Of a DNA stretch of 64,000 bases, positions 2,875 to 58,109 are shown piece after piece; within the stretch, counting starts at the first letter, position 1; each line of letters starts with the position of its first letter. Source of the DNA: Bacteroidales bacterium (GTDB taxonomy: Bacteria; Bacteroidota; Bacteroidia; Bacteroidales; UBA1715); the NCBI GenBank assembly GCA_045615765.1, contig JAZLFM010000010.1, forward strand, positions 99,428-163,427, read 5' to 3'. The notes under the pieces were generated by a model, which worked only from the letters and a program-made list of their open reading frames with translations, was not told the DNA's origin and ran no database searches. A program made the translations under genes and the position numbers.

Positions 2875-2888
2875 TAATGATATTCCGA

Positions 2889-2992: not shown

Positions 2993-3010
2993 CTACAATA
3001 ATCAATAATT

Positions 3011-3035: not shown

Positions 3036-3073
3036 TATTGTAACTTTACCCAAATTTATTTGTCTATTTGATA

Positions 3074-9607: not shown

Positions 9608-12600
9608 ATGAGAAAAATAATTTTCCTCGCAACACTTATTATCTCGTCATATTGTTCATTTTCGCAACAAATAATATTAAATGAGATTGTAGCAAAAAAC
9701 GCCAACTCCTACAGTAACGATCAGGAGAAATCTCCAGATTGGATTGAAATAAAAAACACATCCAATTCCGCTATACAACTTTCAAACTTCAGTCTTGCAA
9801 CAAAAGATTGCTTGAATGCGCCTTGGCAACTTCCAGACATACAATTGGCAGCAGGTGCTGTTACATTATTCGAAGCAAAAGATGCAGAATCAATAGCACA
9901 ATGGGAAACGGTTATTGATCTTGGTCATTCTTTTTCATACATTGTTCCTACTACGAACATCGCAAATTGGACAAAAGAAAATTTTGACGACAATGCTTGG
10001 AACAACGGCCCTTCTCCTATTGGATTTGGAGAAACAAACATTGCCAGTTCTGTTCCAACGGGAACACTATCTGTATTTTTACGAACTACATTCTCCATTA
10101 CCGACATACATGATATTTCCACAATAATGCTCCACATGGACTGCGACGATGGATTTATCGCCTATATCAATGGTACAGAAATAGCACGATCAAATATGAG
10201 CCAAAGCGAATATAATGCATTCGCAACAGATTACACCGACGGAGTTATTATCTTAGGTCAATCACCAAAATCGTATCGGTTCGATAACATTACCAATGTT
10301 TTACACGAAGGTAGTAATACATTTTGTGTACAAGTTCACAATTGTAATGCTACATCAAGCGACCTACTAGCAATTCCTATTTTAAGCATAGGTTATAAGA
10401 CAGCTAAAGAAAGTCGTGGAACAACATCACAATATTGCACGTTCTCAACAGGAGAAACATTTCCACATTCATTAGATGCGTCTTCCGACATTGTATATTT
10501 ACTAGAAGGTGGAAAAATTATAGATAGCATTGCCTGGAAAAACCTTCCTGTTGACATTTCTATTGGCAGAAAGAATGGAGACAACATAAACAGCTATTAT
10601 TTCAGCAAACCTACACCAAAAGCGCAAAACAGTTACGAAGCATTTGTTCCCGAAACTCTTGACAAACCAAAGTTATCCGTTCCTGCAAGCGTGTACACAT
10701 CAGGAACATTATTCTATGTTTCCGCCTACTCAAGCGAAAATGACGTAACCATCCGATACACAACAGACGGTTCTGAGCCAAATGAAGATTCAAAAGTCAT
10801 TCCAAAAAATATACTCATAACAGCTACGACAAACTTACGCGTACGAGCATTTCGGAATGGATATCTACCAAGTAAAACCACAACAGCAACATACCTTTTT
10901 CTTAACAGAGAACAAAATCTTCCTATTGCGTCTATTACAGCAAAAAAAGGAGATTTCTTCAGCAATACCGAAGGTATTTATATGCTAGGTCCAAATGCTT
11001 CAAAAGAAGAACCTTATTATGGAGCAAACTACTGGCAAGATTGGGAAAAGCCTATTCATTTTGAATATTTCGATGAATTCGGAGATTGCGTAGTTTCGCA
11101 AGATGCTGGCGTAAAGATTGGTGGCAACTGGAGCCGCGCGCAACCGCAGAAAACATTAAAAATATACGCTCGCGATGAATATGGAAAAGACGAGATGGAA
11201 TATCAATTTTTCAAAGACAAACCTATTTCTTCTTTCCACCTTATTTTATTACGAAATAGCGGTAACGATTTTAACAATACGCAAATGCGCGACGGCGTTA
11301 TTTCCGAGTTAGCAAAACAAATGGATATAGACCGCCAAGCATATCAACCTGCCATAGTTTTCATTAATGGTAAATACTATGGTATTCAAAATGTACGCGA
11401 AAAACAAAACAAACATTATGTTGCCGAAAACTACGGATACGACAAAGACGACATAGATGTTATAAAAAACAATGGAGAAGTTGCAGACGGAAATAACACT
11501 GATTATTTCATTATGCGAAACTTTATGGAAAACAAAGACTTATCCGACAATGCAAATTACGAACAAGCTAAACAATACATTGACATACAAAACTTTATCG
11601 ACTACAACATTTTGGAAATGTATGTAGTAAACGAAGACTGGCCAGGAAACAATATCGCATATTGGCATTCCCGTTCTGCAAACACACCTTGGCGTTACAT
11701 GCTTTTCGACGCCGATTTCGGACTGGGAATCTGGGATCTTGATAAGAAAGTCAATAAAAATATGTTTCAATGGTGTACTTTGCCAAATTCCAGTGATTAC
11801 GCAACTGCACCATGGTCAACAATTATACTACGTCAATTACTAAAAAACAGCGAGTTCAAAAGAGATTTTCTTAACAGTCTTGCTGACCGACTAAACACAA
11901 CCCTTTCTGCATATTCAGTAAATCACACTATTGATTCTGTTTACGAAATCATAGATAATGAAATGTACTACCATAAACAAAAATGGGGAGACAATTGGCA
12001 AGAAGGTTGGCTCAAACAAATGAAAGATTTCGGAAGTCGTAGAGATGATATTATGAGAAGACAAGCCGAAACCTTCTTTTCTACTAACGGCAGTTACAAA
12101 TTAACCATTTCTTCTTCGCACAAAAATGCCGGTTTTATTCGCCTTAACAGCATAACTGTTTCGACTTTCCCTTGGTCTGGAAAATATTTCAACAACAACA
12201 CAATTTCCTTGACGGCTATTGCAAAACCTGGATACAACTTTGTGCGTTGGGAAGGTGCAGTTAATTCTACAGAAAAAACTATCACTATCACCGCAAATCA
12301 AGCGACAAACATTACTGCCGTTTACGAACATGTAGGAAACGAGCCTCAGATTTCATTCACTGAGATTTATTATCACACATACAAAAATGACGAGACGAAA
12401 TGGATAGAATTATGTAACGACAACAACACACAACAAACTCTTGACATATCTAATTGGACACTTACACTCGATAGATATAATCAGACATTTACATTTCCTG
12501 AAGGAAGTTCTTTGGGAACAGAAAAAAATCCAAATATTCTCGTGTTAGCAAAAAACAAAGAACGTTTTTGTACAAAATATCCCGATGTTCCCGCAGAGTC

Positions 12601-13558
12601 AGTCATTGGAAATATAGATGTCGACTTTCCTAAAGATTTTGCAACCGTAACATTGCGAAACGAAAACGGTTGCAAGATGGCAGAGTTGTTCTACTCCGAC
12701 GAATTTGCACATGCTCAAAAAGCAGATGGATATGGGTACTCCTGCGATTTCAAATACGGAAATTACGCATGCGCCCACACTCTAGGAGGAACACCATTAC
12801 AAGTCAATCTCACCGAAGAAGACATTACCCCAGAGCGATGGCCTATAATTACAGAAATAAACTTTGCACCAAGCAAGACATTTGACTCTGGTGACTGGAT
12901 TGAGATATACAACCCTGACAAATACGCTACTTTCAACTTGAAAGATTGGATGATTAAAGATGATGGAGGTAAAATATCTGTAATCTATGATGAAATAACT
13001 ATTGCTCCAGGTGAATACATTGTTTTTGCAAACAATACTGAAAAGTTCCATAACATCTACCCAGATGTACCTTGTTACCAATTAAACTTGTCGTTAAACA
13101 ACTACCAAGACGGTATTTCACTATATAATAAATACGAACGACGAGTAAATTCAGTATCATATTCTATGTTTGACGGCAAATGGGCAACTAACACATTCAA
13201 AACAGGAAGAACACTTTCGCTTCGCGATTACAATTCAAACAACGCCTCTGGTAAAAATTGGTCTGCAAGTAAAAGTTATGGAACACCAGGAAGAGAAAAC
13301 GATTACATTCTAACCGCTATACCAGAGAATGAGAAAATTCAAATTGCTGCTTATCCAAATCCATGTAGTGAATATCTCATTATTGAATGTGAAGGAACCT
13401 TTATCTACGAAATTGTTACGACGAATGGCATCGTAATAAATTCAGAGGAAGCAAACGACCAAACACAAATACAAACAAACGAACTTCCAACAGGAATCTA
13501 TTTCATTGTAATTTACCAAGGAGACCAAACAACAATAAGAAAAATCGTAAAAGAATAG
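9608..13558 (+). CDS. CotH kinase family protein with three lamin-tail domains, a Fn3_assoc-like domain and a T9SS type-A C-terminal sorting domain
   Basis: 1316 aa; the ATG directly follows the upstream stop.
- Lamin-tail motifs: IILNEIVAKN...DWIEIKNTS, ISFTEIYYH...KWIELCND, IITEINFAP...DWIEIYNPD.
- CotH core: VKIGGNWSRAQPQKTLKIYA, LRNSGNDFNNTQMRDGV, INGKYYGIQNVREK, DWPGNNIAYW...MLFDADFGLG.
- The C-terminus (AAYPNPCSEYL...TGIYFIVIYQGDQTTIRKIVKE) is a Por secretion tail. Confidence 0.85.
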   Translation: MRKIIFLATLIISSYCSFSQQIILNEIVAKNANSYSNDQEKSPDWIEIKNTSNSAIQLSNFSLATKDCLNAPWQLPDIQLAAGAVTLFEAKDAESIAQWETVIDLGHSFSYIVPTTNIANWTKENFDDNAWNNGPSPIGFGETNIASSVPTGTLSVFLRTTFSITDIHDISTIMLHMDCDDGFIAYINGTEIARSNMSQSEYNAFATDYTDGVIILGQSPKSYRFDNITNVLHEGSNTFCVQVHNCNATSSDLLAIPILSIGYKTAKESRGTTSQYCTFSTGETFPHSLDASSDIVYLLEGGKIIDSIAWKNLPVDISIGRKNGDNINSYYFSKPTPKAQNSYEAFVPETLDKPKLSVPASVYTSGTLFYVSAYSSENDVTIRYTTDGSEPNEDSKVIPKNILITATTNLRVRAFRNGYLPSKTTTATYLFLNREQNLPIASITAKKGDFFSNTEGIYMLGPNASKEEPYYGANYWQDWEKPIHFEYFDEFGDCVVSQDAGVKIGGNWSRAQPQKTLKIYARDEYGKDEMEYQFFKDKPISSFHLILLRNSGNDFNNTQMRDGVISELAKQMDIDRQAYQPAIVFINGKYYGIQNVREKQNKHYVAENYGYDKDDIDVIKNNGEVADGNNTDYFIMRNFMENKDLSDNANYEQAKQYIDIQNFIDYNILEMYVVNEDWPGNNIAYWHSRSANTPWRYMLFDADFGLGIWDLDKKVNKNMFQWCTLPNSSDYATAPWSTIILRQLLKNSEFKRDFLNSLADRLNTTLSAYSVNHTIDSVYEIIDNEMYYHKQKWGDNWQEGWLKQMKDFGSRRDDIMRRQAETFFSTNGSYKLTISSSHKNAGFIRLNSITVSTFPWSGKYFNNNTISLTAIAKPGYNFVRWEGAVNSTEKTITITANQATNITAVYEHVGNEPQISFTEIYYHTYKNDETKWIELCNDNNTQQTLDISNWTLTLDRYNQTFTFPEGSSLGTEKNPNILVLAKNKERFCTKYPDVPAESVIGNIDVDFPKDFATVTLRNENGCKMAELFYSDEFAHAQKADGYGYSCDFKYGNYACAHTLGGTPLQVNLTEEDITPERWPIITEINFAPSKTFDSGDWIEIYNPDKYATFNLKDWMIKDDGGKISVIYDEITIAPGEYIVFANNTEKFHNIYPDVPCYQLNLSLNNYQDGISLYNKYERRVNSVSYSMFDGKWATNTFKTGRTLSLRDYNSNNASGKNWSASKSYGTPGRENDYILTAIPENEKIQIAAYPNPCSEYLIIECEGTFIYEIVTTNGIVINSEEANDQTQIQTNELPTGIYFIVIYQGDQTTIRKIVKE

Positions 13559-46640: not shown

Positions 46641-49600
46641 TTACTTTACGAATCCCTTAACAACTGAACCGTTTTCAGTTTCTACAATTACCTTGTAAAC
46701 ACCTTGAGCGAAACCAGTTGCATCAATTTCGATTTCATCAGCTGAAGCTTGTTCGAATGCTACAACCTTACCTGTTGCAGATACAATCTTAACAGCTACT
46801 AAGTTTTCTGCTGCAACAGTAACATTTGTTGTTACCATTGTTGGATAAACTTTCGCATCGATAACAGTTACATCATCAATTGCTGTTTCTTCTGGTCTGT
46901 CAACATCAATGTCAGCACCCATTGCTTTAATTGCATCATACAACCATCTTGCTGCATCATCTACTTCTTCTTGAGTTGCAAATGGTTCATCGTAAACATC
47001 TTGAGCATTCAACCAAGCGTTTTGGAAGTCATTGTAAACAAGTGGTGATTTTTCACCTTTACCACGTCCGATTACGATTTCACCAGCTTGAACTTTGTAG
47101 TAAACTGCATATGCACCCCATTTTTCATTTTCAATCAATTGATTCAAGAATGCTTTATCAGCTTTCACTGGAGTAACAGTTACTGTAATAGTTTGTGAAA
47201 CACCATCAGCTGGAGCAGTTACTGTTACAATTGCAGTTCCTTCTGCAAGAGAAGTAATATTACCTTCACCATCAACAGAGATGATTGAATTATCGTTTAC
47301 TTCATAGATCAAATTCTTATATGTTGCATTTGAAGGAGCAATTGTTGCTTTAATCTTAGCAGATTGTCCTAATTCTAATTCAACATTTGAAACTGTAATT
47401 GATTGAACTGGAATTGAGGCAACAGTAATGTAGATACTGTTAGAAACACCAGAACCGTCTTTTGCAGTTGCAGTAATTTGAACCATACCAGCACCCTTAG
47501 CTGTTACATAACCTGTTTCAGAAACAGTAGCAATTGAAGGATCATTTGAACTCCAAGTCACAGTTTTGTCTGTTGCAGTTGCTTCACCTGCTACAGCAGA
47601 TAATTGAGCTACATCACCAACATTCAACATTTGTGTACCTGAAATTGTAATGTTCTTAACTTTTTCAATTACAGTAACAGTAATATCTGTAGATATACTT
47701 GGATTAGAAGCAGATCTAATTGTCAAAGTAGCAGTTCCACCTTGGTTACCAATAATTGTGAATGAACCATCACCATTATCAGTGTAAGAGAAGCAGCTTG
47801 TACTAGCAAACAATGTATAATCTGTTTGAGTAGTATTAGCAGGGCTATAAGAGATAGTTACTGTACTACCTTTAGTATCGCCTGCAGTTACTTCTACTTT
47901 ACTAATTGAAGCAGTGATATTAGATACTTCGATTGTTTCTTCAACAATTGTTACTTCACATTCATTAGATTCAACACCTTCAGCATCAGCTGCAGTTGCT
48001 ACTACTACGAATGATTGACCAGCCTTACCAGTTACTGTTACTTTACCAGTAGAAGCATTGATTGTTGCACCAGAACCGATAACAGCCCAAGTTACAGTCT
48101 TATCATCTGCATTTGCTGGCAATACTGTAGCAGAGAATGTGTAAGTACTATTTTCTTCTAATGACAATGTTTTTGGTATTGAGATAGAAGAAACATAAGT
48201 AGGATCTTTTAACAATTTAATTGTCGTTGAAGCAGTAACTTTCTTACCATCTAACGAAGTAATTGTAGCAGTAATTCTAATGTTTTCACGATTTTGTGAA
48301 GTTGTCTTACCACTTACGATACCTGTTTCAGGATCAACAGTTACATAAGAACTAGCTGTTGACCATACAACAGATGCAATTGAAGCATCATCTGGTTCGA
48401 ATGTCAAGAATTCTGACAAATCTAATGTTCCTGATTCAGCAACAGTGTATTCACCTAAAGCGATTGTTGCAGAAGAAACTGGAACTATTTGTTTTGTAAC
48501 ATTTACTGTACAAGTTGTTGAAATACCAGCAGTGTAAGCTGATTCAACAGTAATTGTAGCAGTACCAGGAGCAACAGCAGTTAGAACACCATTTGCATCT
48601 ACAGTTACAACACTTTCATCAGAAGAAGACCATACAAGACCTTTATTGTCAACACCTTCAGTTGGAAGGATTGTAACAGTAAATTTATTGTAAGTATCAC
48701 CTTGAACCATACCTACTGTTGAAACATTCAACTTAACTGAAGTTACAGCAGGATCTGAACAATCTTTTACTTCGAATGTAACATCTGTAGCATTACCAGC
48801 ACAACCATTAACATCAGTATAAGAGTATGCTACTGTGTGTGTGCCTTCGCTCAAAGAACTTGGAACGAAAGAAGTAGCAGCCTTACCATCAAGTTTGAAA
48901 TCACCACCAGCAGGAGTTGCCGACAATGCAACTTCAACTACAGAACTTGAACAGAATTCTTCTGCTATAGCAATTACTGGAGTAGGAAGAGCACTAACTG
49001 TCAATGTAGCAGTAGTTGCTTCAGAAGTACAACCATCAACTGTTTGAGTAACAGTATAAGCATAATCTTTAGCAGTTGTTACGCTAACAGCTTGTGTAGC
49101 AGCAGTTCCAAGAGGAGAACCTGCAGCATCGAACCATTGTAAACCAGCACCTGTTGCAGACAATACATATTTAGATTCTTCACCTAAACATGCAGTAGCA
49201 GAAGTTGCCACTGGAGCAGCAGGAGTTTCTTTAACTGTGTAAACAACTTCAGCGAAATCAGATGCACAACCTGCAACAACTTGATTTACATAATATGTTG
49301 TTGTTGCGCTAATTGATTTTGGAGTAAATGACTTGCTGTCAGTTGCAAGAGCAGCAGCAGCTTTATCAGCATACCAATTTGCAGATTCTACTGTTGTCAT
49401 AGCAACCAATTCTGAACCAGCACAAGAACTTGCACCAGTTGCAGTTGGAGCAGCAGGTTTTGCTTTCACTGTAACAACTACAGAAGCACGAGCACTTTCA
49501 CAAGTTGTTTCTTGAGAAGCATAATATGTACCAGCAGTAGTTACATCGAATGTTGTACCTTCAGCAAGTGCAGTACCTTCTTCACTTACATTGTACCATT

Positions 49601-52600
49601 TAATGTTAGTACCTGTTGCTGATAATGTAGCAGTTTCACCTTCACAGATTTCATCAACTGCAGCAATTGTAGGAGCAGGAACTGTACAATCAGTTACTGT
49701 AACAGTTACAGGAACCTTAGCACTTTCACAAGATCCGTCTGTATTAGTTACATAATATGTATAAGTTGCTTTAGCATCTGTTGTAATTGCAGGTGTATAA
49801 GTTGCACCTGTAGCTACAGAAGCACCAGCCTCTGATTCGTACCAGTTAATAGTACCTTTACCTGTTGCAGAAAGAGCAGGAGCAGCATCACCTAAACCAA
49901 CGATAGCCGAAGTAGCTGTTGGAGCAGTAGCTTTTGTTACTGTAATAGTAACATTATCAGTTGCAGAGCAACCATTAGCTGTTTCTGAATAAGCTAATTC
50001 ATAACTTCCAGCAGTTTCAGATTTGAATGTTGAACCTTCAACACCAGTACCACTCCAAGTACCTGTAGCTGGAGCTAACGTAATTTCTTCACCAGCACAA
50101 GCTGTTGTTGCAATAGCACTCAAATCAATAGAAGGAGCTGCCTTCACAGTGATTGTTTTTGTAATTTCTGATTGGCAACCTGGATCACCAATTGTATAAG
50201 TGATAGTTGCAGTACCTGCACCCGCAGTCTTAGGACTGAATGTTGAACCAGTTACACCTGTACCAGACCAAGAACCTGTTGCAGGAGTTGCAGAAAGGGC
50301 GACTGTTTCAACTGAAGAGCAGTATTCAGATTCAACTGTTGAAGCTATGATTGCAGTTGGTTTAGCTGTGATTGTTGCTTTTACAGCTGTACGAGTTTCA
50401 CTTTCACAACCATCGTTTTTAGCAACATAGTAAGTATATTCACCTGCTTTAGTATCACTAGTTGTAAATGAATTACCTTCTTTAAGAGCAACGCCACCTT
50501 CAGCAGCAGAATACCATACTGCAGTTGCTGTACCTGTAAATGTTGCAGTAAGAACTACAGGGTCACCTTCACAAACTGTTACTGCAGGAACTTGAGCAGC
50601 TGTTGGAGCAGTTGTTTTACATGCACCAGCAGAAATTGTAACAGTTACTGGAGTACGTTCACTTTCGCAGTTTTTCGCATCTTTTCTAGCAACATAATAT
50701 GTATATGTACCTTCCTCTAATTGACCAAGAGCAGTTGCTATTGGAGAGCCACCTGTTGCAGCTGCATACCATACAGCAGTACCACTTGTTAATTTAGCAG
50801 ATAGAGTAACATTATCATCAGCTGTAGCTTTGATTGCAGGAGCCTCAGCAGCTGTAGGAGCAGCAACAGCTGTTACAGTTACTTTTACTGGAGTGCGAGG
50901 ACTTTCGCAAATACCATCATTGTTTGCAACATAATATGTGTATTCACCTGCAGCTTTTTGACCAATCTTAGCAGAAGCTAATGGAGTACCAGCAGTTGCA
51001 ACATCATACCATACAGCAGTACCACTTGCAGTTGCTGTTAAAGTAATATCATCGCAAGGAGTTGCAGTAATATCTTTTGCAGTTGGAGCAACAGCAGTAC
51101 AAGGAGCATCACCATTCTTAACAGTAATTGTAGCAGTTACTGTTGGATCATCTTTTGCAGTTACAGTAATTACAGCAACACCTTCACCACCATTAAAGAT
51201 TACATCAAAAGCATATACGCTTGTTTTTTGTACTGATTGTTTTGATACAGGACCAACCGAAGCGACATCTGTATTCGAAGAAGCAACAGTTACACCTGTG
51301 AAGGCAAAATTTGAAGGTTGGAATGTAACACCAAAAGTAACATAATTTGCATCTTCGTCTTCTGGATCCAACCAGTTATAGTCTTCATCATCAACAACAT
51401 CCATCAAAACCGTAGAAGTTGCATCAGCTTTTTGAATTGCTCCATCACCACCAAATAAAGCGATAGAATTCAAACCAGCTTCTTTTACAGTAATATCAAA
51501 TGAGCCTACTGCATAATCACCACAACCTTTTGTTTTTGCAGTTGCCGTAATTGTTGTTGTACCTAAAGCAACAGCCTTTACAAGACCAATAGAAGAAACT
51601 GTGGCAACTGAAGTATTACTTGATTTCCAAGTAAATTCTGTTGTTGCACCTTCAGGAAGAGCAATTGCAGTCAATGTTTGAGTTTCTGAAGGAGACATTT
51701 TTTCTACACCAGTAATTTCAACTTCAGCAGGAACAAGAACAGAAGATACAGATAAAGTAGCTTTTACAGTTGGATCAGCATCAGAAGTAATAGTAATTGT
51801 ACCTGTACCAGCAGCTTTACCTTCAAGAGAGATTACTGCTGTTTTTTCATCATATGTAACAGTTACAATATCACTTGCACCAGAGAATGACAATGCTTTA
51901 TTTGGATAACGAGCCTCATCAAATGTAACCGCTACTGTAGTAGGTTCACATCCAACTTTAACTTGAGCTGCATCTACATCCAACGAAATTGAATTCAATT
52001 CATAAGAAGCAGGAGTTATTGTAATCAATGGAGAAGGACCAGCCATTTCTTGGCCATCAGCACTTACAATATATATATAATATGTAGTTGCTGTATCTAT
52101 AGCTAATTCTTCTGTTTCTAATTGTGCAAGTCCATACAAATTAGAAGATAAACTTAACACAGCTTTTGATGCAACTGTCTTAATTCTTACAGACTCATCA
52201 GAAGGAACTAGGTAAACTTTTGCTTCACGAGTTGCTGTAACCTTAATTACATCACCAAGTGTGTATTCAGCTGCATCAACTTTGAAATCTAAGGCTACTT
52301 GATTTATTTCAAAACATGAAGCAGGAACTTTTTCTGAATAGTTACCACTACCATCTGCAGCAACTAAATAGAACTGATCACCTGGTTTTATCACTTTACC
52401 TTCATATAGAGCTTCAAAGTTAAATGTTACTGGTTGACCACCTTCTACCATCCACATATAAGGAGAATCATCGATATCTGTTTTTGCAGCAGAGCAAGGC
52501 ATCAAGTAAACAGTAGCATCTTCGTTTACAGTGAAGAATAATGTACCGTCAGCATCGATGTAGTCTTCATTAAAATATTCTGTGAATTCAGGAGGAGTTA

Positions 52601-55600
52601 CGTCCTTAACTTGGCAACCATAAGCTGAAGACACAGAACCTGAAACAGGATCGTATGCATACGCTTTAAAGTAACCATAACCCATACCCATCATATCGAT
52701 TGTAGCAGGAGTATTAGCAGTACAAGCTGTATATGTACCTTCACCAGCATTTACAGCAGCCATCATTGCTGAATATTGAGGATTTACTGTTCCTCTAACA
52801 ACAAAGATGTAACCATCAGCTGAACTTGTAACTTTAAACTTAGAGTCTTCATCTATACCAACTTTAGTATTCAAAACTTCAGCTGGAGAGAAATCAGACA
52901 AGTACAATGGTTGACCTACTGAAATGTAGTCAAAATGTAATGTTCCATTATACAATGTAGGAACATAATCATTCTTATCTGTACCTTCAGCTTTTATGAA
53001 ACGGAATTGAATTTCAGAGATAGCAGTAGGATCTACACCAGAGAAACTTGGATTATAAGTAATCTTAGTTGGAGTAGAGCTTACTGTTAGTCTCGTGAAA
53101 GAACCGTCTTTAGAATTTCCAAAATAATCTTTTACATCTATACGATAATAAACAGTTGCTCTTGCATCTGAAGTAACAGAAAATTCAATCACACCACGAT
53201 CTCCACTTAAGTCAAGAACAAAGCCTTCATTTGTTGATGCAGAATATGGAGCTAAAATAATTTGAGATCCCCATGAGTCACCAGCAGCTTGTGTAAAATC
53301 CAATGTTCCTGCTTTTGCATTTTCAATGATACTATATGCAATATCATCATCAAAACTACCTAAATTCAAGTTTTCTGTTACATAATCTGTAGCATCAGCA
53401 AAGTCATCATACCAACCTGTAGAAGTTGTACAGCCAACAAGATTTGCTAACTCTACAGAGAATGGTGCAGATTTACGACCATCGTTAGATTTAACATCGC
53501 TTGTTTCTGCTGCCAATGTTGCAGTAATTGTTGCAGAAGCAGATTTAATTGGAGTTTCAAGATTGAAAATCAATGTAGAAGCATCACCTGTTTTTGTTTC
53601 TATAGATGTAACAGCATGAGAAGTTGCGCCTTCTTTAATAACTATAGCCGACAAACTTGTAGGAAGTTTCATTGCTGTTGAGAAGTTCAATTCCACTTGC
53701 GAACCATCAAAAGCAACTTTTCCTGACTCAGCTTCAACAACTTGTTTCTTTGGACATAATGCAAATTCATCGATATAAATTTCGAATGCTACATCAGCTT
53801 GTTCACTTGTTGAAGAAGCTTTAAATGGAGCAATCCAAATTTTATTGTATTTATTCTGTTCTGAATATGCTTGCCATGACCATGCTGCTGTTGTTCCAAG
53901 AGGAATATCAAATTCATACCACTTACCTACTGTAATATCTTCAAGCAAGAAAGCAGCATTTTTAGGACTGTAATCTGGAGTATTTAAATCTTCTGTCATC
54001 AAGAAGATAGCCATACCATCAGCACCAGCACCAAGAGATTTCAAATAGAATCTACCTGTCAAACGAGAGTTTGGATCAGCTAAGTTTGTATTCCATTCAG
54101 CTTTATTAGCTGTGTTTGGTGTAAATATCAAACGTTGATAATCACCAGGAGTTTTAAGATACATAGCCTTACCATCAGTCGCGCTAGCAAAATCTGTTTC
54201 CATTGGGATATTAGATACCATACAGTCCCAAGTTCCTGTTTCTACTCCCCCTGTAACATACATTTCCAAACAAGATTCACTCATGTAGAAATTTTGTACA
54301 ACAGCTTTAGTAAATGCTTTTGCTTTCTTAGTTCCTGTTAATGAAGTCAAACCACCTGCATACGAAATAGTAATTGCATCTGCAGAAGAAGACAATAAAG
54401 ATTCACCAAAATCTAATGCCAATACTGTTTTATCTTGTACACCTTCATCATCTGTAAAATAAGAAAGTTTTGGTGTTTTAGAAACTGCTGTTCCATTTAC
54501 ATATACAGTAAAGTCTGAAGCAGCAGCAGATGCTAACTTCACATCTTTAGACCATTGTACATATACTTTTGCACCAATAACATCAGTGTAACGAGCAATT
54601 GGATATGGTTCCATGCTTGTTACTTTATTTGTTACTTGTTGGTCTTCGAAAGTAGATGCTTTTGAACCATCAGTACCTGTTAAAGTTGTTCCTGTATATG
54701 ATACATATATATAAGGATCTGCAATATCAGAAGACAAATTCAATGTCACATCCTTAGACATAACGGAAGCAGAAGAAACAGAGATTTTTGTACCGTTTGT
54801 CTTATTTTTTGCATCATCAGCAGTAGGATATGTAGTAACAACAAATTTGCTTATTGAACTAGTTGCAGAAGCCGCATTGATTGGTTTTGAGAAATTAACA
54901 ATTACAGAACTTCCTGATGCATCAGTTTCCGAACTTAAATATACAGGAAGCATATCGTAGAAGTTAGGCATGTTACCTGTCAAGCACAACATGAACAACA
55001 ACTGAGTTGTATGAGTATAATATGCACCATACACATCAGTTGCAGAACCGTTAGACCAACAAGCATTCATATAGCTTTTATAAGTTGGATCAACCATAGA
55101 ACCGATACTCAAACCAGCTTTGAAACAAGCATTTTTACTTGATCCCCAAGAAGAAAGAGAACCTTTGAATGCACCTGTCCCATCACCCGGACGACCATCA
55201 AGGAAGTAACCATCTAAGATATCACCAGGATTAGGATATGCTTTTTGCGCCCATGAAGTGATTTTTGAAGCAAGTGCCTTTGCACGAGTGTCGCCATACC
55301 ATGCATACGCATGAGCAAGACGCCAAGGAATACGAACAGCATCGTAACCAAAGATAGATTCGAATTTAGAATCTACAATACCTGTCAAATAAGAACCATT
55401 TTCATAACACCAGTCAGGAATCAAACCTGTAGTTGCATTAGCAGATTTTTCCATAATAGTGTAACAGTTATTTGCAACAGTAGTAAAGTCCCAAGAAGCA
55501 CCTAAACTTTCAAGAGCATTTACTTGATCAAACAACTTCATTGCATTTGTAATGAAATAGCAAGGGTTTTTGTAATCATCAAAGTAATCACCTGGTTTTA

Positions 55601-56204
55601 GATTCTTATTAGCGTTAACTTCGTATGTCCAAATACTTTGAATCAATTTTTTTGCATCATTCAAGTATTTCACATCACCCCATTGTTTATACGCCATCAA
55701 CAAAGCTTGAGCTGCATCAAGGTCAGCATCGGTTGCACCGTTGGCATTACCTTGACCTGCGGCAACATTACCAGTAAAAGCATTTACTTTCCAGTTCATC
55801 AAGCCATGATCGTTGGAATTTGCTTTGTAATACGCCCATGTTTTATCGAAATCAAGTTGCGTATTATTCTTCGCATTATCCATATACACAAAGATAAGCA
55901 TACCGTATGCAATACCTTCTGATACAGAATTCGTACCATCTTCACCAGCTTGTACGAATTTCACACGACCAAGTGAACCATCTGTCACATAATACTTTGC
56001 TTTCCAAGCTTCATATAAGCTTTGAATTTTTGTTTGCACTTCGCTACCCGTATAGATACTACCATTCGGATACGCATAATTGTTAGGGAATGGATAGTTC
56101 GGACTTGCCGAAGTAATACCCACAAAACCTAACAGCGCGACACACACAAGCAATAGATGCTTAAGCAAGCCGCCTTTCGTTTTTGTAATCTCTGTTTGTT
56201 TCAT
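46641..56204 (-). CDS. Giant (3187 aa) T9SS-secreted multidomain glycoside hydrolase: N-terminal GH8 catalytic domain, CBM-like beta-sandwich domains, about 10 Ig-like modules, about 9 BIG2 domains and a type-A C-terminal sorting domain
   Basis: - A signal peptide is present.
- GH8 motifs: SVSEGIAYGML (catalytic Glu context) and ATDADLDAAQALLMAYKQW, one mismatch to the PROSITE GH8 signature as I recall it.
- Repeated modules of the type ..WY....G..L...........YTYYV....CES.R..V.VTV.
- BIG2-like units such as VVWSSSDESVVTVDANGVLTAVAPGTATITV.
- The C-terminus (AKVYPTMVTTNVTV...GVYKVIVETENGSVVKGFVK) is a Por secretion tail. Confidence 0.85.
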   Translation of the reverse strand: MKQTEITKTKGGLLKHLLLVCVALLGFVGITSASPNYPFPNNYAYPNGSIYTGSEVQTKIQSLYEAWKAKYYVTDGSLGRVKFVQAGEDGTNSVSEGIAYGMLIFVYMDNAKNNTQLDFDKTWAYYKANSNDHGLMNWKVNAFTGNVAAGQGNANGATDADLDAAQALLMAYKQWGDVKYLNDAKKLIQSIWTYEVNANKNLKPGDYFDDYKNPCYFITNAMKLFDQVNALESLGASWDFTTVANNCYTIMEKSANATTGLIPDWCYENGSYLTGIVDSKFESIFGYDAVRIPWRLAHAYAWYGDTRAKALASKITSWAQKAYPNPGDILDGYFLDGRPGDGTGAFKGSLSSWGSSKNACFKAGLSIGSMVDPTYKSYMNACWSNGSATDVYGAYYTHTTQLLFMLCLTGNMPNFYDMLPVYLSSETDASGSSVIVNFSKPINAASATSSISKFVVTTYPTADDAKNKTNGTKISVSSASVMSKDVTLNLSSDIADPYIYVSYTGTTLTGTDGSKASTFEDQQVTNKVTSMEPYPIARYTDVIGAKVYVQWSKDVKLASAAASDFTVYVNGTAVSKTPKLSYFTDDEGVQDKTVLALDFGESLLSSSADAITISYAGGLTSLTGTKKAKAFTKAVVQNFYMSESCLEMYVTGGVETGTWDCMVSNIPMETDFASATDGKAMYLKTPGDYQRLIFTPNTANKAEWNTNLADPNSRLTGRFYLKSLGAGADGMAIFLMTEDLNTPDYSPKNAAFLLEDITVGKWYEFDIPLGTTAAWSWQAYSEQNKYNKIWIAPFKASSTSEQADVAFEIYIDEFALCPKKQVVEAESGKVAFDGSQVELNFSTAMKLPTSLSAIVIKEGATSHAVTSIETKTGDASTLIFNLETPIKSASATITATLAAETSDVKSNDGRKSAPFSVELANLVGCTTSTGWYDDFADATDYVTENLNLGSFDDDIAYSIIENAKAGTLDFTQAAGDSWGSQIILAPYSASTNEGFVLDLSGDRGVIEFSVTSDARATVYYRIDVKDYFGNSKDGSFTRLTVSSTPTKITYNPSFSGVDPTAISEIQFRFIKAEGTDKNDYVPTLYNGTLHFDYISVGQPLYLSDFSPAEVLNTKVGIDEDSKFKVTSSADGYIFVVRGTVNPQYSAMMAAVNAGEGTYTACTANTPATIDMMGMGYGYFKAYAYDPVSGSVSSAYGCQVKDVTPPEFTEYFNEDYIDADGTLFFTVNEDATVYLMPCSAAKTDIDDSPYMWMVEGGQPVTFNFEALYEGKVIKPGDQFYLVAADGSGNYSEKVPASCFEINQVALDFKVDAAEYTLGDVIKVTATREAKVYLVPSDESVRIKTVASKAVLSLSSNLYGLAQLETEELAIDTATTYYIYIVSADGQEMAGPSPLITITPASYELNSISLDVDAAQVKVGCEPTTVAVTFDEARYPNKALSFSGASDIVTVTYDEKTAVISLEGKAAGTGTITITSDADPTVKATLSVSSVLVPAEVEITGVEKMSPSETQTLTAIALPEGATTEFTWKSSNTSVATVSSIGLVKAVALGTTTITATAKTKGCGDYAVGSFDITVKEAGLNSIALFGGDGAIQKADATSTVLMDVVDDEDYNWLDPEDEDANYVTFGVTFQPSNFAFTGVTVASSNTDVASVGPVSKQSVQKTSVYAFDVIFNGGEGVAVITVTAKDDPTVTATITVKNGDAPCTAVAPTAKDITATPCDDITLTATASGTAVWYDVATAGTPLASAKIGQKAAGEYTYYVANNDGICESPRTPVKVTVTAVAAPTAAEAPAIKATADDNVTLSAKLTSGTAVWYAAATGGSPIATALGQLEEGTYTYYVARKDAKNCESERTPVTVTISAGACKTTAPTAAQVPAVTVCEGDPVVLTATFTGTATAVWYSAAEGGVALKEGNSFTTSDTKAGEYTYYVAKNDGCESETRTAVKATITAKPTAIIASTVESEYCSSVETVALSATPATGSWSGTGVTGSTFSPKTAGAGTATITYTIGDPGCQSEITKTITVKAAPSIDLSAIATTACAGEEITLAPATGTWSGTGVEGSTFKSETAGSYELAYSETANGCSATDNVTITVTKATAPTATSAIVGLGDAAPALSATGKGTINWYESEAGASVATGATYTPAITTDAKATYTYYVTNTDGSCESAKVPVTVTVTDCTVPAPTIAAVDEICEGETATLSATGTNIKWYNVSEEGTALAEGTTFDVTTAGTYYASQETTCESARASVVVTVKAKPAAPTATGASSCAGSELVAMTTVESANWYADKAAAALATDSKSFTPKSISATTTYYVNQVVAGCASDFAEVVYTVKETPAAPVATSATACLGEESKYVLSATGAGLQWFDAAGSPLGTAATQAVSVTTAKDYAYTVTQTVDGCTSEATTATLTVSALPTPVIAIAEEFCSSSVVEVALSATPAGGDFKLDGKAATSFVPSSLSEGTHTVAYSYTDVNGCAGNATDVTFEVKDCSDPAVTSVKLNVSTVGMVQGDTYNKFTVTILPTEGVDNKGLVWSSSDESVVTVDANGVLTAVAPGTATITVESAYTAGISTTCTVNVTKQIVPVSSATIALGEYTVAESGTLDLSEFLTFEPDDASIASVVWSTASSYVTVDPETGIVSGKTTSQNRENIRITATITSLDGKKVTASTTIKLLKDPTYVSSISIPKTLSLEENSTYTFSATVLPANADDKTVTWAVIGSGATINASTGKVTVTGKAGQSFVVVATAADAEGVESNECEVTIVEETIEVSNITASISKVEVTAGDTKGSTVTISYSPANTTQTDYTLFASTSCFSYTDNGDGSFTIIGNQGGTATLTIRSASNPSISTDITVTVIEKVKNITISGTQMLNVGDVAQLSAVAGEATATDKTVTWSSNDPSIATVSETGYVTAKGAGMVQITATAKDGSGVSNSIYITVASIPVQSITVSNVELELGQSAKIKATIAPSNATYKNLIYEVNDNSIISVDGEGNITSLAEGTAIVTVTAPADGVSQTITVTVTPVKADKAFLNQLIENEKWGAYAVYYKVQAGEIVIGRGKGEKSPLVYNDFQNAWLNAQDVYDEPFATQEEVDDAARWLYDAIKAMGADIDVDRPEETAIDDVTVIDAKVYPTMVTTNVTVAAENLVAVKIVSATGKVVAFEQASADEIEIDATGFAQGVYKVIVETENGSVVKGFVK
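47170..48760 (-). repeat. In-frame array of six BIG2-type Ig-like modules within the giant gene (approximate bounds)
   Basis: Six units of about 85-90 aa. Each carries the V.W.SS....A.V...G.V.A...G.A.ITA-type pattern in the translated sequence. Confidence 0.6.
48760..51100 (-). repeat. In-frame array of about 10 divergent modules of about 78 aa, Cys-containing and Ig-like, within the giant gene (approximate bounds)
   Basis: Example modules: AVWYDVATAGTPLAS...YTYYVANNDGICESPRTPVKVTVT, AVWYAAATGGSPIAT...YTYYVARKDAKNCESERTPVTVTIS, INWYESEAGASVAT...YTYYVTNTDGSCESAKVPVTVTVT, and others. Confidence 0.7.
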
Positions 56205-56242
56205 AATTATATTAATTAAAAATTTACATTACATTAAGCATG

Positions 56243-56250
56243 CAAAAGTA
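56243..56250 (-). promoter_or_regulatory. -7 box (TACTTTTG on the minus strand), candidate promoter of the giant GH8 gene
   Basis: The plus strand reads caaaagta, 39 nt upstream of the ATG at 56204. Confidence 0.35.
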
Positions 56251-56641
56251 AACTATTTTTTTCAATACTTTACTAACAAGCATACTTTTTCTTTGTTCCT
56301 ATTAGACAAACGAAATAAACAAAACCCTATAACATACTGATAAAAAATTTGGACTGTCTATTTCCTAAAAATATAGCGGTATTTACAATGTCAACTCCTA
56401 CGGAGTTATTTACTCCGAAAGAGGATATTATGTATTCTACCAATAGACATCCCCTACGGGGAGATACGAAACACCAAGATATAATTGTCAATTAAGAATT
56501 TCGTAACATTATTAAAGTATGTCAAAAATAGCAACCAAAGGCTGACCATCTATACTTAATGAATGAGTATTTTTTCAAAGTAAGACGAATGCAAAAGATC
56601 TTTCGTCTTACACAAGAAGACTAACAACCAACGGAAAGTCT

Positions 56642-56678
56642 CAAAAACAAAAAGGGCGAACCACTTGGTTCGCCCTTT
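56642..56678 (-). terminator. Intrinsic terminator after the 468-aa T9SS cargo gene
   Basis: GGGCGAACC (56654-56662), loop ACTT, then GGTTCGCCC (56667-56675). On the minus strand a T-rich run follows (the plus strand reads caaaaacaaaaa). Confidence 0.8.
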
Positions 56679-56702: not shown

Positions 56703-58109
56703 TTATTTTACGAATTTAATTGTACCTTCTTGAGCTGTGATGAAATAAACACCAGCATTCAAAGAATTTACATTGAATTCTTGAGAAGCAACAGCTACAA
56801 TTTTACCAGCGACATTGTAAACAACGATTTCGCCTGCTGAGTAAACCATGCCACCTTGAACTGCAAATGCAGAAGCGGCAACTTCATCTACTGCAGTTGG
56901 TTCTGGAGTAGAGCCTGCTACTTTAATGTTGATAGCATCAATACCTTCAGCAACAGCATCAGTTGTTACAATAACCAATTTACAAACTGCAGAAGCAGAA
57001 GAAACTTCTACAACACCTGAGAAATCAATTTCGTCACCTTTTGCGATATCAGATTTAATTGGAAGGTATGCAGAGATTGCATTGTAAGAATCATCCATTA
57101 AGTATGCTTGAAGACCAGCGATAGATTGATCAGCAATACCTTTAACTGAGAATGTAACAAAGTCACCTGCGAATACATCAGAAGCAATGTTTTCAACTGT
57201 TTGATAGTTCGAACCTGTTTCCCAAACATTAGCAGACAATGTAATGTTAGTATATTCTTTTGTTGCTAACTCAACAGCTTCGTGTTCTACATCACCATCT
57301 TTCAAGAATTTAATTTCTTTCTCTGCATCGTAACCAGCAATAAAGGCAGTCAATTTATATTCAGTACCTGTTGCAGCTTTTGGAACTGTGAACTCGAACT
57401 CAGTACCTGCTACTTTTTCACCAGCAGTAGCAACAAATGGACGAGAAGTCCAAGGTAAGATAGTGTTTCCTTCCTTGTCGAACACCATAAAATTGATACC
57501 ATCTATATCTTGGTTGAATGTACCATCAATTGTCACCTTAATGATATCATCTGCAGCTAAATTATCATCAGTTGTAAATAAAGCATCAGCTTTATAGTTT
57601 ACTGGATTTGCAGGATCATCAGCACCAAATTTTACTGTTGGCATTGCAACAGGATATGTTGCACCAGCAACGAATGATGGAGTTGGACGCATTTTAACCA
57701 TTGGTACATCAGCAAGAGGATCCATTCGGATAACAATCTTTTCTGCTGACACTGCATCATCTGTTATTTCAAATTCATAATATTCATCAAACAAGGTTAA
57801 AGCAGAAGTTGAACCACCAACTTTTTCAACAGACCATGCTGTAAGATTTTTCCAATAACTAGCAGCTTCAGAATTATCTGCAACAGCAGTAAAATTCACA
57901 CCTCTAATATCATTATCGAAATAACCTTTAACTGTAACAAGAATCCAGTCACCTGTTTGCAACAATGCACCACCTAATTGATCTGTGATATCAACATTGT
58001 TTTCATTACCAATAACAAAGTCAAATTTATCAACTGTTACTTCGTACTCTGTTGCACTTACACCAAGTGACAATAAAGCACCACTTAAAAATAATAAAAT
58101 CTTCTTCAT
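56703..58109 (-). CDS. T9SS type-A cargo protein with three internal repeats of about 125 aa; function unknown
   Basis: 468 aa with a signal peptide. Three repeats share G-D-(W/I/F)-(I/V)-x-(V/F)-(T/S)-(V/I)-x-G-x-(F/A)-(D/N)-x-(D/S)-I-x-G-(V/I/L): GDWILVTVKGYFDNDIRGVNF, DDIIKVTIDGTFNQDIDGINF and GDFVTFSVKGIADQSIAGLQA. The C-terminus (VYNVAGKIVAVA...AGVYFITAQEGTIKFVK) is a Por secretion tail. Confidence 0.75.
   Translation of the reverse strand: MKKILLFLSGALLSLGVSATEYEVTVDKFDFVIGNENNVDITDQLGGALLQTGDWILVTVKGYFDNDIRGVNFTAVADNSEAASYWKNLTAWSVEKVGGSTSALTLFDEYYEFEITDDAVSAEKIVIRMDPLADVPMVKMRPTPSFVAGATYPVAMPTVKFGADDPANPVNYKADALFTTDDNLAADDIIKVTIDGTFNQDIDGINFMVFDKEGNTILPWTSRPFVATAGEKVAGTEFEFTVPKAATGTEYKLTAFIAGYDAEKEIKFLKDGDVEHEAVELATKEYTNITLSANVWETGSNYQTVENIASDVFAGDFVTFSVKGIADQSIAGLQAYLMDDSYNAISAYLPIKSDIAKGDEIDFSGVVEVSSASAVCKLVIVTTDAVAEGIDAINIKVAGSTPEPTAVDEVAASAFAVQGGMVYSAGEIVVYNVAGKIVAVASQEFNVNSLNAGVYFITAQEGTIKFVK

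What the first reader, a model, noticed from the sequence alone, without database searches (positions are those of the whole stretch)
46641..56204. 3187-aa GH8 enzyme fused to about 19 Ig-like modules and a T9SS sorting tail
The N-terminal 400 aa or so carry GH8 hallmarks: SEGIAYGM and ATDADLDAAQALLMAYKQW. The rest of the protein contains:
- two CBM-like beta-sandwich regions;
- three BIG2 units;
- about 10 Cys-containing Ig-like modules;
- six further BIG2 units;
- a helical FIVAR-like segment;
- a type-A Por secretion tail.

GH8 catalytic domains are usually found in proteins of 350-800 aa. A cell-surface-anchored GH8 held on a stalk of more than 2500 aa is unusual. Multi-modular T9SS-linked glycanases have been reported from uncultured rumen Bacteroidota. 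Here the gene is not in a SusC/SusD polysaccharide-utilisation locus. GH8 includes cellulase, chitosanase, xylanase and licheninase activities, so the substrate cannot be read from the sequence.
Basis: partly seen in the sequence, partly recalled or inferred. Interest (0 to 1): 0.62.

Follow-up and report, generated by a model that had tools for sequence, protein, structure and literature searches.

The report
Giant secreted GH8 glycanase on stalk
This is a real, conserved and probably transcribed gene for a 3,187-residue secreted enzyme of an uncultured herbivore-gut Bacteroidales bacterium, with an intact family-8 glycoside hydrolase and two sugar-binding-like modules at the tip of a long chain of Ig-like domains. 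The design is already known from Cytophaga and is common in this lineage, so it is a new member of a known kind.

Summary
The ORF at 46641-56204 (minus strand) encodes 3,187 aa:
- a Sec signal peptide;
- a GH8 domain (Pfam E 6e-29; best solved relative C. thermocellum CelA, E 9e-39) that keeps the CelA catalytic residues (E96, D159, Y216, D288, R291);
- two confidently modelled beta-jelly-roll modules with type-B CBM folds;
- about 25 Ig-like modules, including 10 Ig_7 and 8-9 Big_2;
- a helical segment and a type-A T9SS sorting domain.

It is not an assembly artefact. Internal DNA repeats are at most 83% identical, and 34 collinear orthologues come from independent assemblies. A gut metatranscriptome carries contigs of the 5' half.

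The claim that the design is unusual fails. At least 95 GH8 proteins of 1,750 aa or more were found, and C. hutchinsonii CHU_1075 (2,690 aa, GH8 + Ig + CTD) is published. All 24 genomes of this bacterial family carry 2-9 GH8 genes, against 14 of 151 across the order.

The genome has about 49 T9SS cargo proteins, PorU, two SusD, three GH94 and no GH10. This points to a PUL-poor degrader of beta-glucan and cellodextrins.

Best reading: a T9SS-exported endo-beta-1,4-glucanase, probably held on the cell surface. Substrate and anchoring remain inferred.

The parts
46641..56204 (-). Whole ORF, 3,187 aa (P0001); mature protein about 324 kDa, pI about 4.3
56243..56250 (-). Candidate Bacteroidetes-type -7 promoter box TAcTTTTG, 39 nt upstream of the ATG. 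The upstream gene ends with its own hairpin + T-run terminator at about 56640-56672.
   Evidence: Read from the sequence. The RNA contig of run X3 ends at 56217. The promoter call is an inference.
56106..56204 (-). Sec signal peptide (residues 1-33): K-rich n-region, hydrophobic LLLVCVALLGFVGI, TSA|SP cleavage site. No lipobox.
   Evidence: Read from the sequence; inference
54945..56105 (-). GH8 catalytic domain (residues 34-420) with E96 (acid), D159, Y216, D288 (base, GH8a position) and R291
54297..54944 (-). Two Ig-like/SWM-repeat-like spacer modules (residues 421-636)
   Evidence: SWM_repeat E 3.9e-4, below cut-off; conserved in orthologues
53727..54296 (-). X1: beta-jelly-roll, type-B-CBM-like module (residues 637-826). 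Distant homologue of the xyloglucan-binding domain D of B. ovatus SGBP-B. W659 is near-invariant.
53445..53726 (-). Ig-like module (residues 827-920), weak Big_5 match
   Evidence: E 0.0011, below cut-off
52920..53444 (-). X2: second beta-jelly-roll, type-B-CBM-like module (residues 921-1095)
   Evidence: no match by sequence
52005..52919 (-). About three modules without any family match (residues 1096-1400). Conserved in orthologues and unique to this protein within the genome.
51105..52004 (-). Three Big_2-like modules (residues 1401-1700)
48765..51104 (-). Ten Ig_7 (CHU_C-associated Ig) modules (residues 1701-2480), eight with a Cys pair about 49 residues apart
47169..48764 (-). Five clear Big_2 modules plus one weak (residues 2481-3012)
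46890..47168 (-). Probably helical, FIVAR-like linker (residues 3013-3105); the family match is below threshold
   Evidence: FIVAR E 0.051
46644..46850 (-). Type-A T9SS C-terminal sorting domain (residues 3119-3187)

Best explanation
The gene encodes a T9SS-exported glycanase.

**Export (inferred from the parts).** A Sec signal peptide takes the 324-kDa chain to the periplasm. The type-A C-terminal domain directs it through the type IX secretion system. The PorU sortase, which is present in the genome, is expected to remove that domain and may attach the protein to surface lipopolysaccharide.

**Layout.** The C-terminus is the attachment end and the catalytic domain is N-terminal. The working head therefore sits at the far end of about 19 generic Ig_7/Big_2 stalk modules. 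The head is residues 34-1400 and comprises GH8, two CBM-like beta-jelly-rolls and Ig spacers. If the roughly 28 beta-sandwich modules are extended at about 3.5-4 nm each, the reach is on the order of 100 nm (an estimate).

**Catalysis.** The GH8 domain is a GH8a-type inverting endo-glycanase with acid E96 and base D288. It most likely cuts beta-1,4-glucan chains: amorphous cellulose, mixed-linkage glucan or the xyloglucan backbone. X1 and X2 would hold single glycan chains. The oligosaccharides released would feed the cell's three GH94 cellodextrin/cellobiose phosphorylases.

**Shown here:** ORF integrity, domain identities, conservation of the catalytic residues, the CBM-like folds, the presence of PorU and other T9SS genes, conservation across many genomes, and RNA contigs.

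**Inferred:** enzymatic activity, substrate, cleavage and anchoring, and an extended stalk.
For: **GH8 identity and catalytic residues**
- Pfam gives 101.6 bits and CelA 1CEM matches at E 9.4e-39 over the whole domain.
- E96, D159, Y216, D288 and R291 align to CelA E95, D152, Y215, D278 and R281. They are invariant in all 35 orthologues.
- GH8 is the most conserved part of the protein, at 69% mean identity against 29-55% for the stalk.

**CBM-like modules**
- X1 and X2 model at pLDDT 86.6 and 88.7.
- Their best fold matches are CBM11, CBM22, CBM16, CBM30, CBM4, CBM29 and the BiXyn10A CBM, at E 1e-4 to 8e-6 and TM about 0.5.
- The X1 profile hits domain D of SGBP-B at E 1e-4. The near-invariant W659 sits on platform residue W330 (PMC4850273).

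**T9SS**
- TIGR04183 is above its cut-off.
- The genome has about 49 such cargo proteins.
- PorU scores 1079 bits, and a PorP/SprF gene lies in the window.

**Real gene**
- Internal DNA repeats are at most 83% identical.
- Five independent assemblies give collinear proteins of 3,186-3,218 aa.
- Synteny is conserved in UBA1715.
- Metatranscriptome run X3 has contigs at 97-100% identity over 51383-56217 and none over the flanking genes.

**Substrate context**
- The genome has 9 GH8, 4 GH5, 3 GH9, 3 GH94, no GH10 and only 2 SusD.

**Precedent**
- C. hutchinsonii GH8 giants were detected in proteomes during growth on filter paper (PMC6247017).
Against: - No activity data exist for any member of this clade.
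- The nearest characterised relatives are only about 30-43% identical. The six F. succinogenes GH8 enzymes include both cellulases and xylanases (PMC3079729).
- The fold matches of X1 and X2 include xylan-binding CBM22 and BiXyn10A CBM1. X2 has no detectable sequence relative among solved structures.
- Only one of the three SGBP-B platform aromatics is clearly kept in X1.
- CHU_1075, the published analogue, was found in the soluble extracellular fraction, so retention on the surface is not assured.
- RNA contigs are absent from the 3' 1.6 kb of the gene, and metatranscriptomes can carry DNA.
Confidence: 0.7

Rival explanations
1. It is an enzyme, but its substrate is xylan (or another beta-1,4-glycan such as chitosan or lichenan) rather than a beta-1,4-glucan.
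For: - GH8 contains xylanases, and two F. succinogenes GH8 enzymes tested as xylanases.
- Fibrobacterota GH8s are the sister groups of the query clade.
- X1 and X2 also match xylan-binding CBM22 and the BiXyn10A CBM.
- Chitosanases 7CJU and 1V5C score at E 1e-29 to 1e-30.
Against: - The best solved match is the endoglucanase CelA.
- The catalytic base is Asp at the GH8a position. The GH8b relative 5XD0 has Asn there. Chitosanases and licheninases are assigned to GH8b from recalled literature.
- The genome lacks GH10 and has three GH94 phosphorylases.
- X1 is related to a xyloglucan-binding domain.
Confidence: 0.2
2. It is mainly an adhesin or fibre-tethering fibril. The GH8 head and the CBM-like modules would serve chiefly to bind plant glycans and hold the cell on fibre, with hydrolysis secondary or lost.
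For: - About 85% of the chain is non-catalytic.
- The stalk modules are shared with other giant non-enzymatic T9SS proteins of the same genome.
- Two other giants in this genome carry GH8-like heads with the base replaced, by Gly in C54_3433 and by Glu in C50_3775.
- The roles of the Cytophaga GH8 giants are described as unknown.
Against: - All five catalytic-centre residues are invariant in all 35 orthologues.
- The GH8 domain is the most strongly conserved part of the protein. This is what selection on catalysis would produce.
Confidence: 0.08
3. The long ORF is an assembly artefact: collapse, expansion or chimeric joining of repeats.
For: - The protein is highly repetitive at module level and comes from a short-read MAG.
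- Some Logan contigs in other runs show spurious joints within the gene.
- The orthologue on contig tig00000997 (locus L017) is split into two frames.
Against: - DNA copies of the modules are at most 83% identical, and there is no tandem array beyond 36 nt.
- Thirty-four orthologues from different samples and assemblers are collinear. Five of them (3,186-3,218 aa) have no indel of 40 aa or more.
- Gene order around the gene is the same in UBA1715.
Confidence: 0.02

Closest known systems
Cytophaga hutchinsonii CHU_1075 and the other large GH8 proteins of C. hutchinsonii and Sporocytophaga myxococcoides (Taillefer et al. 2018, PMC6247017)
   Same: - One N-terminal GH8 domain of about 400 aa, about 30% identical to CelA.
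- A galactose-binding-like/CBM-like module, many Ig-like folds (including the Ig_7 'CHU_C-associated' type) and a T9SS C-terminal domain.
- Total length of 2-3 thousand residues, encoded outside any PUL.
   Different: - In the tree, the GH8 domains of the Cytophagales giants fall in a different clade from the query. CHU_1075 itself was not included.
- The host here is an anaerobic, small-genome gut Bacteroidales.
- The head carries two jelly-roll modules that match no Pfam family.
- The CTD is type A.
Clostridium (Acetivibrio) thermocellum endoglucanase CelA, GH8a (PDB 1CEM/1KWF)
   Same: It is the best solved relative (E 9.4e-39, full domain). The acid, the base and the D152, Y215 and R281 equivalents are all kept.
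   Different: CelA is a 363-residue catalytic domain plus a dockerin, displayed on a cellulosome. Here the display is by a covalent Ig stalk and the T9SS.
Multi-modular T9SS CAZymes of 'Candidatus Paraporphyromonas polyenzymogenes' / Ca. MH11 (Naas et al. 2018, PMC5831590)
   Same: An uncultured herbivore-gut Bacteroidales with a PUL-poor genome. Its fibre-degrading enzymes carry T9SS CTDs, and GH94 phosphorylases handle the products.
   Different: Those enzymes are mostly GH5-based, often have several catalytic domains and reach about 1,900 aa. Here there is one GH8 domain on a stalk of about 1,800 aa (residues 1401-3187), and the family-wide expansion is of GH8.
Fibrobacter GH8 endoglucanases and xylanases (for example F. 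succinogenes Cel8B)
   Same: Apart from this genome's own C34 paralogues, they are the closest GH8 sequences outside the giant clade (33-43% identity). They occupy the same gut niche.
   Different: The nearest shorter relatives in the protein library are 450-1,000 aa, without the Ig stalk.
Bacteroides ovatus SGBP-B (BACOVA_02650) domain D
   Same: The X1 profile matches domain D (E 1e-4), with fold matches at ranks 2, 4 and 13. Platform residue W330 aligns with the near-invariant W659. Both place a glycan-binding jelly-roll at the end of tandem Ig domains.
   Different: SGBP-B is a 489-aa lipoprotein of a PUL. Y363 and W364 are not clearly conserved in X1.

Membership tests
Glycoside hydrolase family 8 (CAZy GH8; Pfam PF01270) | Significant match to the family model over the catalytic domain | tested here: met
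   PF01270 scores 101.6 bits against a cut-off of 24. 1CEM matches at E 9.4e-39 over residues 37-415.
Glycoside hydrolase family 8 (CAZy GH8; Pfam PF01270) | Catalytic acid Glu (CelA E95) and the conserved Asp (CelA D152) | tested here: met
   E96 and D159 are present and invariant in all 35 orthologues.
Glycoside hydrolase family 8 (CAZy GH8; Pfam PF01270) | (alpha/alpha)6 barrel fold | not tested
The fold is implied only by the full-length alignment to 1CEM.
Glycoside hydrolase family 8 (CAZy GH8; Pfam PF01270) | Inverting hydrolysis of a beta-1,4-glycan | not testable with these tools
   Needs an enzyme assay.
GH8 subfamily a (catalytic base at the CelA D278 position; subfamily scheme recalled from Adachi et al. 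2004) | Asp at the position of CelA D278 | tested here: met
   D288 lies in GYDAVR. The GH8b relative 5XD0 has Asn at that position.
T9SS type-A CTD cargo | C-terminal TIGR04183 / PF18962 domain at the very C-terminus | tested here: met
   TIGR04183 scores 31 bits against a cut-off of 23 at residues 3119-3187. PF18962 scores 29.1 bits against 27 on the isolated C-terminus.
T9SS type-A CTD cargo | N-terminal Sec signal peptide | tested here: met
   Read from the sequence: n-, h- and c-regions with a TSA|SP site. No predictor was run.
T9SS type-A CTD cargo | T9SS machinery encoded in the same genome | tested here: met
   PorU NF033707 scores 1079 bits against a cut-off of 420. PorP/SprF lies at 7525-8541. 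About 49 CTD-bearing frames were found.
T9SS type-A CTD cargo | Demonstrated secretion, CTD cleavage and surface attachment | not testable with these tools
   Needs proteomics or a genetic system.
Carbohydrate-binding modules, type B beta-sandwich (X1, X2) | Beta-jelly-roll fold like the known CBM families | tested here: met
   pLDDT is 86.6 and 88.7. Foldseek top hits are CBM11, 22, 16, 30, 4 and 29, with TM 0.4-0.54 and E 8e-6 to 1e-3.
Carbohydrate-binding modules, type B beta-sandwich (X1, X2) | Sequence membership of a defined CBM family | tested here: not met
   Neither module has a Pfam hit. The X2 profile has no PDB hit. X1 hits only SGBP-B domain D and, weakly, CBM22. dbCAN was not available.
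Carbohydrate-binding modules, type B beta-sandwich (X1, X2) | Carbohydrate binding | not testable with these tools
   Needs affinity gels or ITC.
FIVAR domain (PF07554) | Match above the Pfam gathering score | tested here: not met
   14.7 bits against a cut-off of 29.2, E 0.051.
PUL-encoded (SusC/SusD-linked) glycanase | Adjacent SusC/SusD pair | tested here: not met
   The neighbours are TamB, a T9SS protein, DUF4412 and SiaB/SiaC-like genes. The genome has only two SusD genes, on other contigs.
BcsZ-type GH8 (cellulose-synthase operon endoglucanase) | NCBIfam NF008305 above its cut-off | tested here: not met
   38.3 bits against a cut-off of 299. No bcs genes lie in the neighbourhood.
Cytophaga-type GH8 giants (CHU_1075-like) | Architecture of GH8 + Ig-like region + T9SS CTD in a protein longer than 2,000 aa | tested here: met
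   description in PMC6247017
Cytophaga-type GH8 giants (CHU_1075-like) | Common descent of the GH8 domain with the Cytophagales giants | tested here: inconclusive
   The Cytophagales and Sporocytophaga giants (P0074-P0091) and own paralogue C20_2582 form a separate clade from the query clade (quick tree). CHU_1075 itself was not in the data set.

The most novel reading that the evidence does not exclude
The giant GH8 proteins may be the main fibre-attacking device of a whole family of small-genome, PUL-poor Bacteroidales of herbivore hindguts. On this reading each is a tethered 'fishing-rod' enzyme about 100 nm long. Its head carries two undescribed CBM families, one of them descended from the SGBP-B xyloglucan-binding domain. 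Because the genome also encodes GldJ and SprB/SprF-like genes, the tether could be carried along the cell surface by the gliding machinery. This would be an anaerobic counterpart of Cytophaga's contact-dependent cellulolysis.
Probability: 0.15. Interest if true: 0.6.

Novelty: new member of a known kind. Interest (0 to 1): 0.3.

Why it matters
The gene is one well-preserved example of a large, uncharacterised clade of GH8 giants. The clade seems typical of one family of uncultured Bacteroidales from horse, elephant and ruminant guts. GH8 is present in 24 of 24 genomes of that family, against 14 of 151 across the order.

No member of the clade has been assayed. The role of the long non-catalytic region is an acknowledged open question, even for the cultured Cytophaga analogues.

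The gene offers concrete targets:
- a catalytic head with clean boundaries (residues 34-425);
- two confidently folded CBM-like modules that match no Pfam or PDB-sequence CBM family (dbCAN not run).

It does not reveal a new principle.

Tried and rejected
1. **Assembly artefact.** Rejected on the low identity of the DNA repeats and the collinear independent orthologues.
2. **Long-read confirmation.** I tried locus L017, whose contig name (tig00000997) suggests a long-read assembler. The orthologue there is split into two frames, so it neither confirms nor refutes anything.
3. **BcsZ-type function.** The NCBIfam hit is far below its cut-off and there is no bcs context.
4. **GH8b chitosanase/licheninase type.** The query has Asp where the GH8b relative 5XD0 has Asn.
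5. **Pfam on the separated segments.** This gave nothing for X1, X2 or residues 1096-1400. The X2 profile and residues 1096-1400 have no match among PDB sequences.
6. **FIVAR.** Below threshold.
7. **Operon partners.** The 468-aa T9SS gene upstream is conserved in only 4 of 8 related loci and has its own terminator. DUF4412 downstream is conserved only in the closest relative.
8. **Literature search for the closest MAG (UBA1715).** It returned only unrelated papers.
9. **Papers on GH8 giants in hindgut Bacteroidales.** None was found among the papers held.
Full report
**1. The observation**

The window holds one uninterrupted ORF at 46641-56204 on the minus strand, encoding 3,187 aa.

Whole-protein scans gave these family matches:
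- Pfam: Glyco_hydro_8 (residues 38-325, 101.6 bits, cut-off 24), Ig_7 (7 stretches), Big_2 (5 stretches) and Por_Secre_tail.
- NCBIfam: TIGR04183, the type-A T9SS sorting domain, passes its cut-off at 31 bits against 23.

An HMM iterated on the protein itself resolves the modules:
- ten Ig_7 modules (1706-2479), eight with a Cys pair about 49 residues apart;
- three Big_2-like units (1423-1686);
- five clear Big_2 units (2507-3000), with room for a sixth.

The 'FIVAR-like' segment is only a sub-threshold match (E 0.051).

**2. A real gene, not an assembly product**

- At DNA level the module copies are at most 83% identical. The only tandem repeat is 36 nt long, so short reads can resolve the gene.
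- A search restricted to long proteins found 95 GH8 giants.
- The top 34 are collinear with the query over their whole length. Five come from different sources (NCBI UBA1715/JGI, Logan, ENA), are 3,186-3,218 aa long and have no indel of 40 aa or more. The versions of about 3,540 aa differ by about two extra Ig_7 and two extra Big_2 modules at fixed places.
- Gene order is the same in UBA1715: TsaD, TamB, the 468-aa T9SS protein, the giant, DUF4412, then the SiaC and DUF6272 genes.
- One gut metatranscriptome (run X3) carries contigs at 97-100% identity over 51383-56217, and none over the flanking genes. Its longest contig ends at 56217, which lies between a TAcTTTTG box (56243-56250) and the ATG.
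- The upstream gene has its own hairpin + T-run terminator, so the giant is probably transcribed from its own promoter. DNA carry-over into the RNA library cannot be excluded.

**3. The catalytic head**

Among solved structures the best match is C. thermocellum CelA (1CEM, E 9.4e-39, query 37-415 against chain 3-359). Next come a Paenibacillus glucanase (5XD0) and chitosanases.

Counting along the printed alignment and a MAFFT alignment gives these equivalences to CelA:

| CelA | Query |
|---|---|
| E95 (acid) | E96 |
| D152 | D159 |
| Y215 | Y216 |
| D278 (base) | D288 |
| R281 | R291 |

All five are invariant in the 35 orthologues. 5XD0 has Asn at the base position, as GH8b enzymes do according to recalled literature, so the query is of the GH8a type. 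GH8 is the most conserved region, at 69% mean identity against 29-55% for the stalk.

**4. The two 'CBM-like' regions**

I modelled both regions with AlphaFold2 on alignments of orthologues. X1 (632-832) reached pLDDT 86.6 and X2 (915-1100) reached 88.7.

Foldseek against the PDB returned almost only type-B carbohydrate-binding modules among the best hits:
- CBM11, CBM22, CBM16, CBM30, CBM4 and CBM29, the BiXyn10A CBM and a laminarin-binding CBM;
- the glycan-binding domain of the Bacteroides xyloglucan-locus protein SGBP-B.

E-values ran from 8e-6 to 1e-3 and TM-scores were about 0.4-0.54.

By sequence, neither module hits any Pfam family. The X1 profile does match SGBP-B domain D (5E7H, E 1e-4). 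The Trp that is near-invariant in X1 (W659) aligns with W330, one of the three aromatic platform residues of SGBP-B (PMC4850273). The other two, Y363 and W364, are not clearly kept.

X2 has no sequence relative among solved structures. The fold assignment is therefore confirmed, but neither module can be placed in a named CBM family.

**5. Genome and lineage context**

The window lies in a 2.63-Mb genome that is 97% complete. Family searches of that genome found:

| Feature | Count |
|---|---|
| GH8 matches | 9 |
| Type-A CTD frames | about 49 |
| SusD | 2 |
| GH5 | 4 |
| GH9 | 3 |
| GH94 phosphorylases | 3 |
| GH10 | 0 |

- Seven of the nine GH8 domains have the full catalytic set. Two giants have the base replaced, by Gly in C54_3433 and by Glu in C50_3775.
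- PorU scores 1079 bits. A GldJ match sits at the family cut-off.
- Sixteen ORFs of 2,000 aa or more take up about 5.6% of the genome (summed from the ORF list).
- Within the genome, the head (421-1400) is unique to this protein. The Ig_7 and Big_2 stalk modules are shared with other giants.
- All 24 genomes of the same GTDB family (5 genera, 1.6-5.0 Mb, most 2.1-3.2 Mb) carry 2-9 GH8 matches, many in frames of 2,500-4,500 aa.
- Across the order only 14 of 151 genomes have any GH8 at E 1e-10 or better, mostly one gene of about 440 aa.
- The relatives named by their records are MAGs from horse faeces, UBA1715, sheep rectum and rumen.

**6. Phylogeny**

In a quick maximum-likelihood tree of 81 GH8 domains:
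- the query sits in a well-supported clade (SH-aLRT 99) of 29 giant Bacteroidales proteins;
- that clade groups with Fibrobacterota GH8s and with the three tandem paralogues on contig C34;
- the giants named as Cytophagaceae, Cytophaga or Sporocytophaga fall, together with own paralogue C20_2582, in another clade;
- CelA lies elsewhere.

The giant architecture is therefore found on at least two GH8 lineages.

In the 1.84-billion-protein library there are 2,775 relatives at E 1e-3 or better and 366 at E 1e-30 or better. Every complete hit at 49% identity or more is 2,000-4,100 aa long. Below about 48% identity the proteins are mostly 450-1,000 aa.

**7. Mechanism**

The anatomy gives the following model. 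Sec export is followed by T9SS translocation, directed by the type-A CTD. PorU then removes the CTD and may attach the protein to surface LPS, as established for type-A cargo in Porphyromonas and as recently reported for C. hutchinsonii cellulases (abstract of PMC12860637, listed).

Because the anchor end is C-terminal, the GH8/CBM head is distal. About 28 beta-sandwich modules at about 3.5-4 nm each would give a reach of roughly 100 nm (an estimate).

The most likely substrate is a beta-1,4-glucan. The evidence for this is:
- CelA is the best solved match;
- the catalytic base is of the GH8a type;
- X1 is related to a xyloglucan binder;
- the genome has three GH94 and no GH10.

Xylan remains a serious alternative, because Fibrobacter GH8s include xylanases and the CBM fold matches include xylan binders.

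Surface retention is not assured. The Cytophaga analogue CHU_1075 was found in the soluble extracellular fraction.

**8. Comparison with what is known, and verdict**

- Taillefer et al. 2018 (PMC6247017) describe C. hutchinsonii CHU_1075: 2,690 aa, with a GH8 of about 400 aa that is 32% identical to CelA, a galactose-binding-like domain, several Ig-like folds and a CTD. They describe similar proteins in Sporocytophaga and state that their role is unknown.
- Naas et al. 2018 (PMC5831590) describe T9SS-linked multi-modular CAZymes in a PUL-poor rumen Bacteroidales.

The present gene is thus a new member of a known kind. Its particular points are:
- a fully intact catalytic centre;
- two CBM-like modules that no CBM family claims by sequence;
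- membership of a GH8-expanded hindgut family.

Its functional reading is largely right, but its claim of unusualness is not. Earlier notes of this scan on other genomes reached similar conclusions for related GH8 giants. I treated those notes as leads only.

Noticed in passing
window 56703-58109 (-): A 468-aa T9SS type-A cargo protein (P0097) made of three internal repeats of about 130 aa, with no Pfam family apart from the tail. It lies directly upstream of the giant in 4 of 8 related loci (40-85% identity) but has its own terminator at about 56640-56672.
   Followed up: partly
window 3068-8541 (+): A 1,485-aa protein with DUF7948, PKD, a SprB repeat and a type-B CHU_C sorting domain. It is followed immediately by a PorP/SprF gene, which makes a SprB/SprF-like gliding-adhesin pair.
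   Followed up: no
window 9608-13558 (+): A 1,316-aa T9SS cargo protein combining a CotH kinase-like domain, lamin-tail domains and a type-A tail.
   Followed up: no
own genome, contig C34 about 37-57 kb (outside the window): A tandem array of four GH8 genes (989, 648, 926 and 2,534 aa). At least three carry T9SS tails. A 4,213-aa giant lies just downstream.
   Followed up: partly
own genome, C54:8603-18904 and C50:26323-37650 (outside the window): Two giants (3,433 and 3,775 aa) carry divergent GH8-like heads. The acid Glu and the D152 equivalent are kept, but the catalytic base is Gly in one and Glu in the other. They may be non-hydrolytic or re-wired heads.
   Followed up: partly
own genome, C43:13348-19273 (outside the window): PorU (1079 bits) and a GldJ-type gene (451 bits alone, 458.3 with neighbouring matches, against a cut-off of 458.2) lie within 1.2 kb of each other. 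Gliding-type machinery may therefore be present in this gut anaerobe.
   Followed up: no
own genome as a whole: Sixteen ORFs of 2,000 aa or more occupy about 5.6% of a 2.63-Mb genome. There are only two SusD genes, three GH94 and no GH10. This is a PUL-poor, T9SS-rich profile oriented towards cellodextrins.
   Followed up: partly
L017 10001-18908: The orthologue on contig tig00000997 of MAG OdNW_18-Q3-R42-56_BATAC.352 is split: the GH8 match ends near 10921 and a 2,612-aa frame restarts at 11070. This is either a frameshift error or a pseudogene.
   Followed up: no
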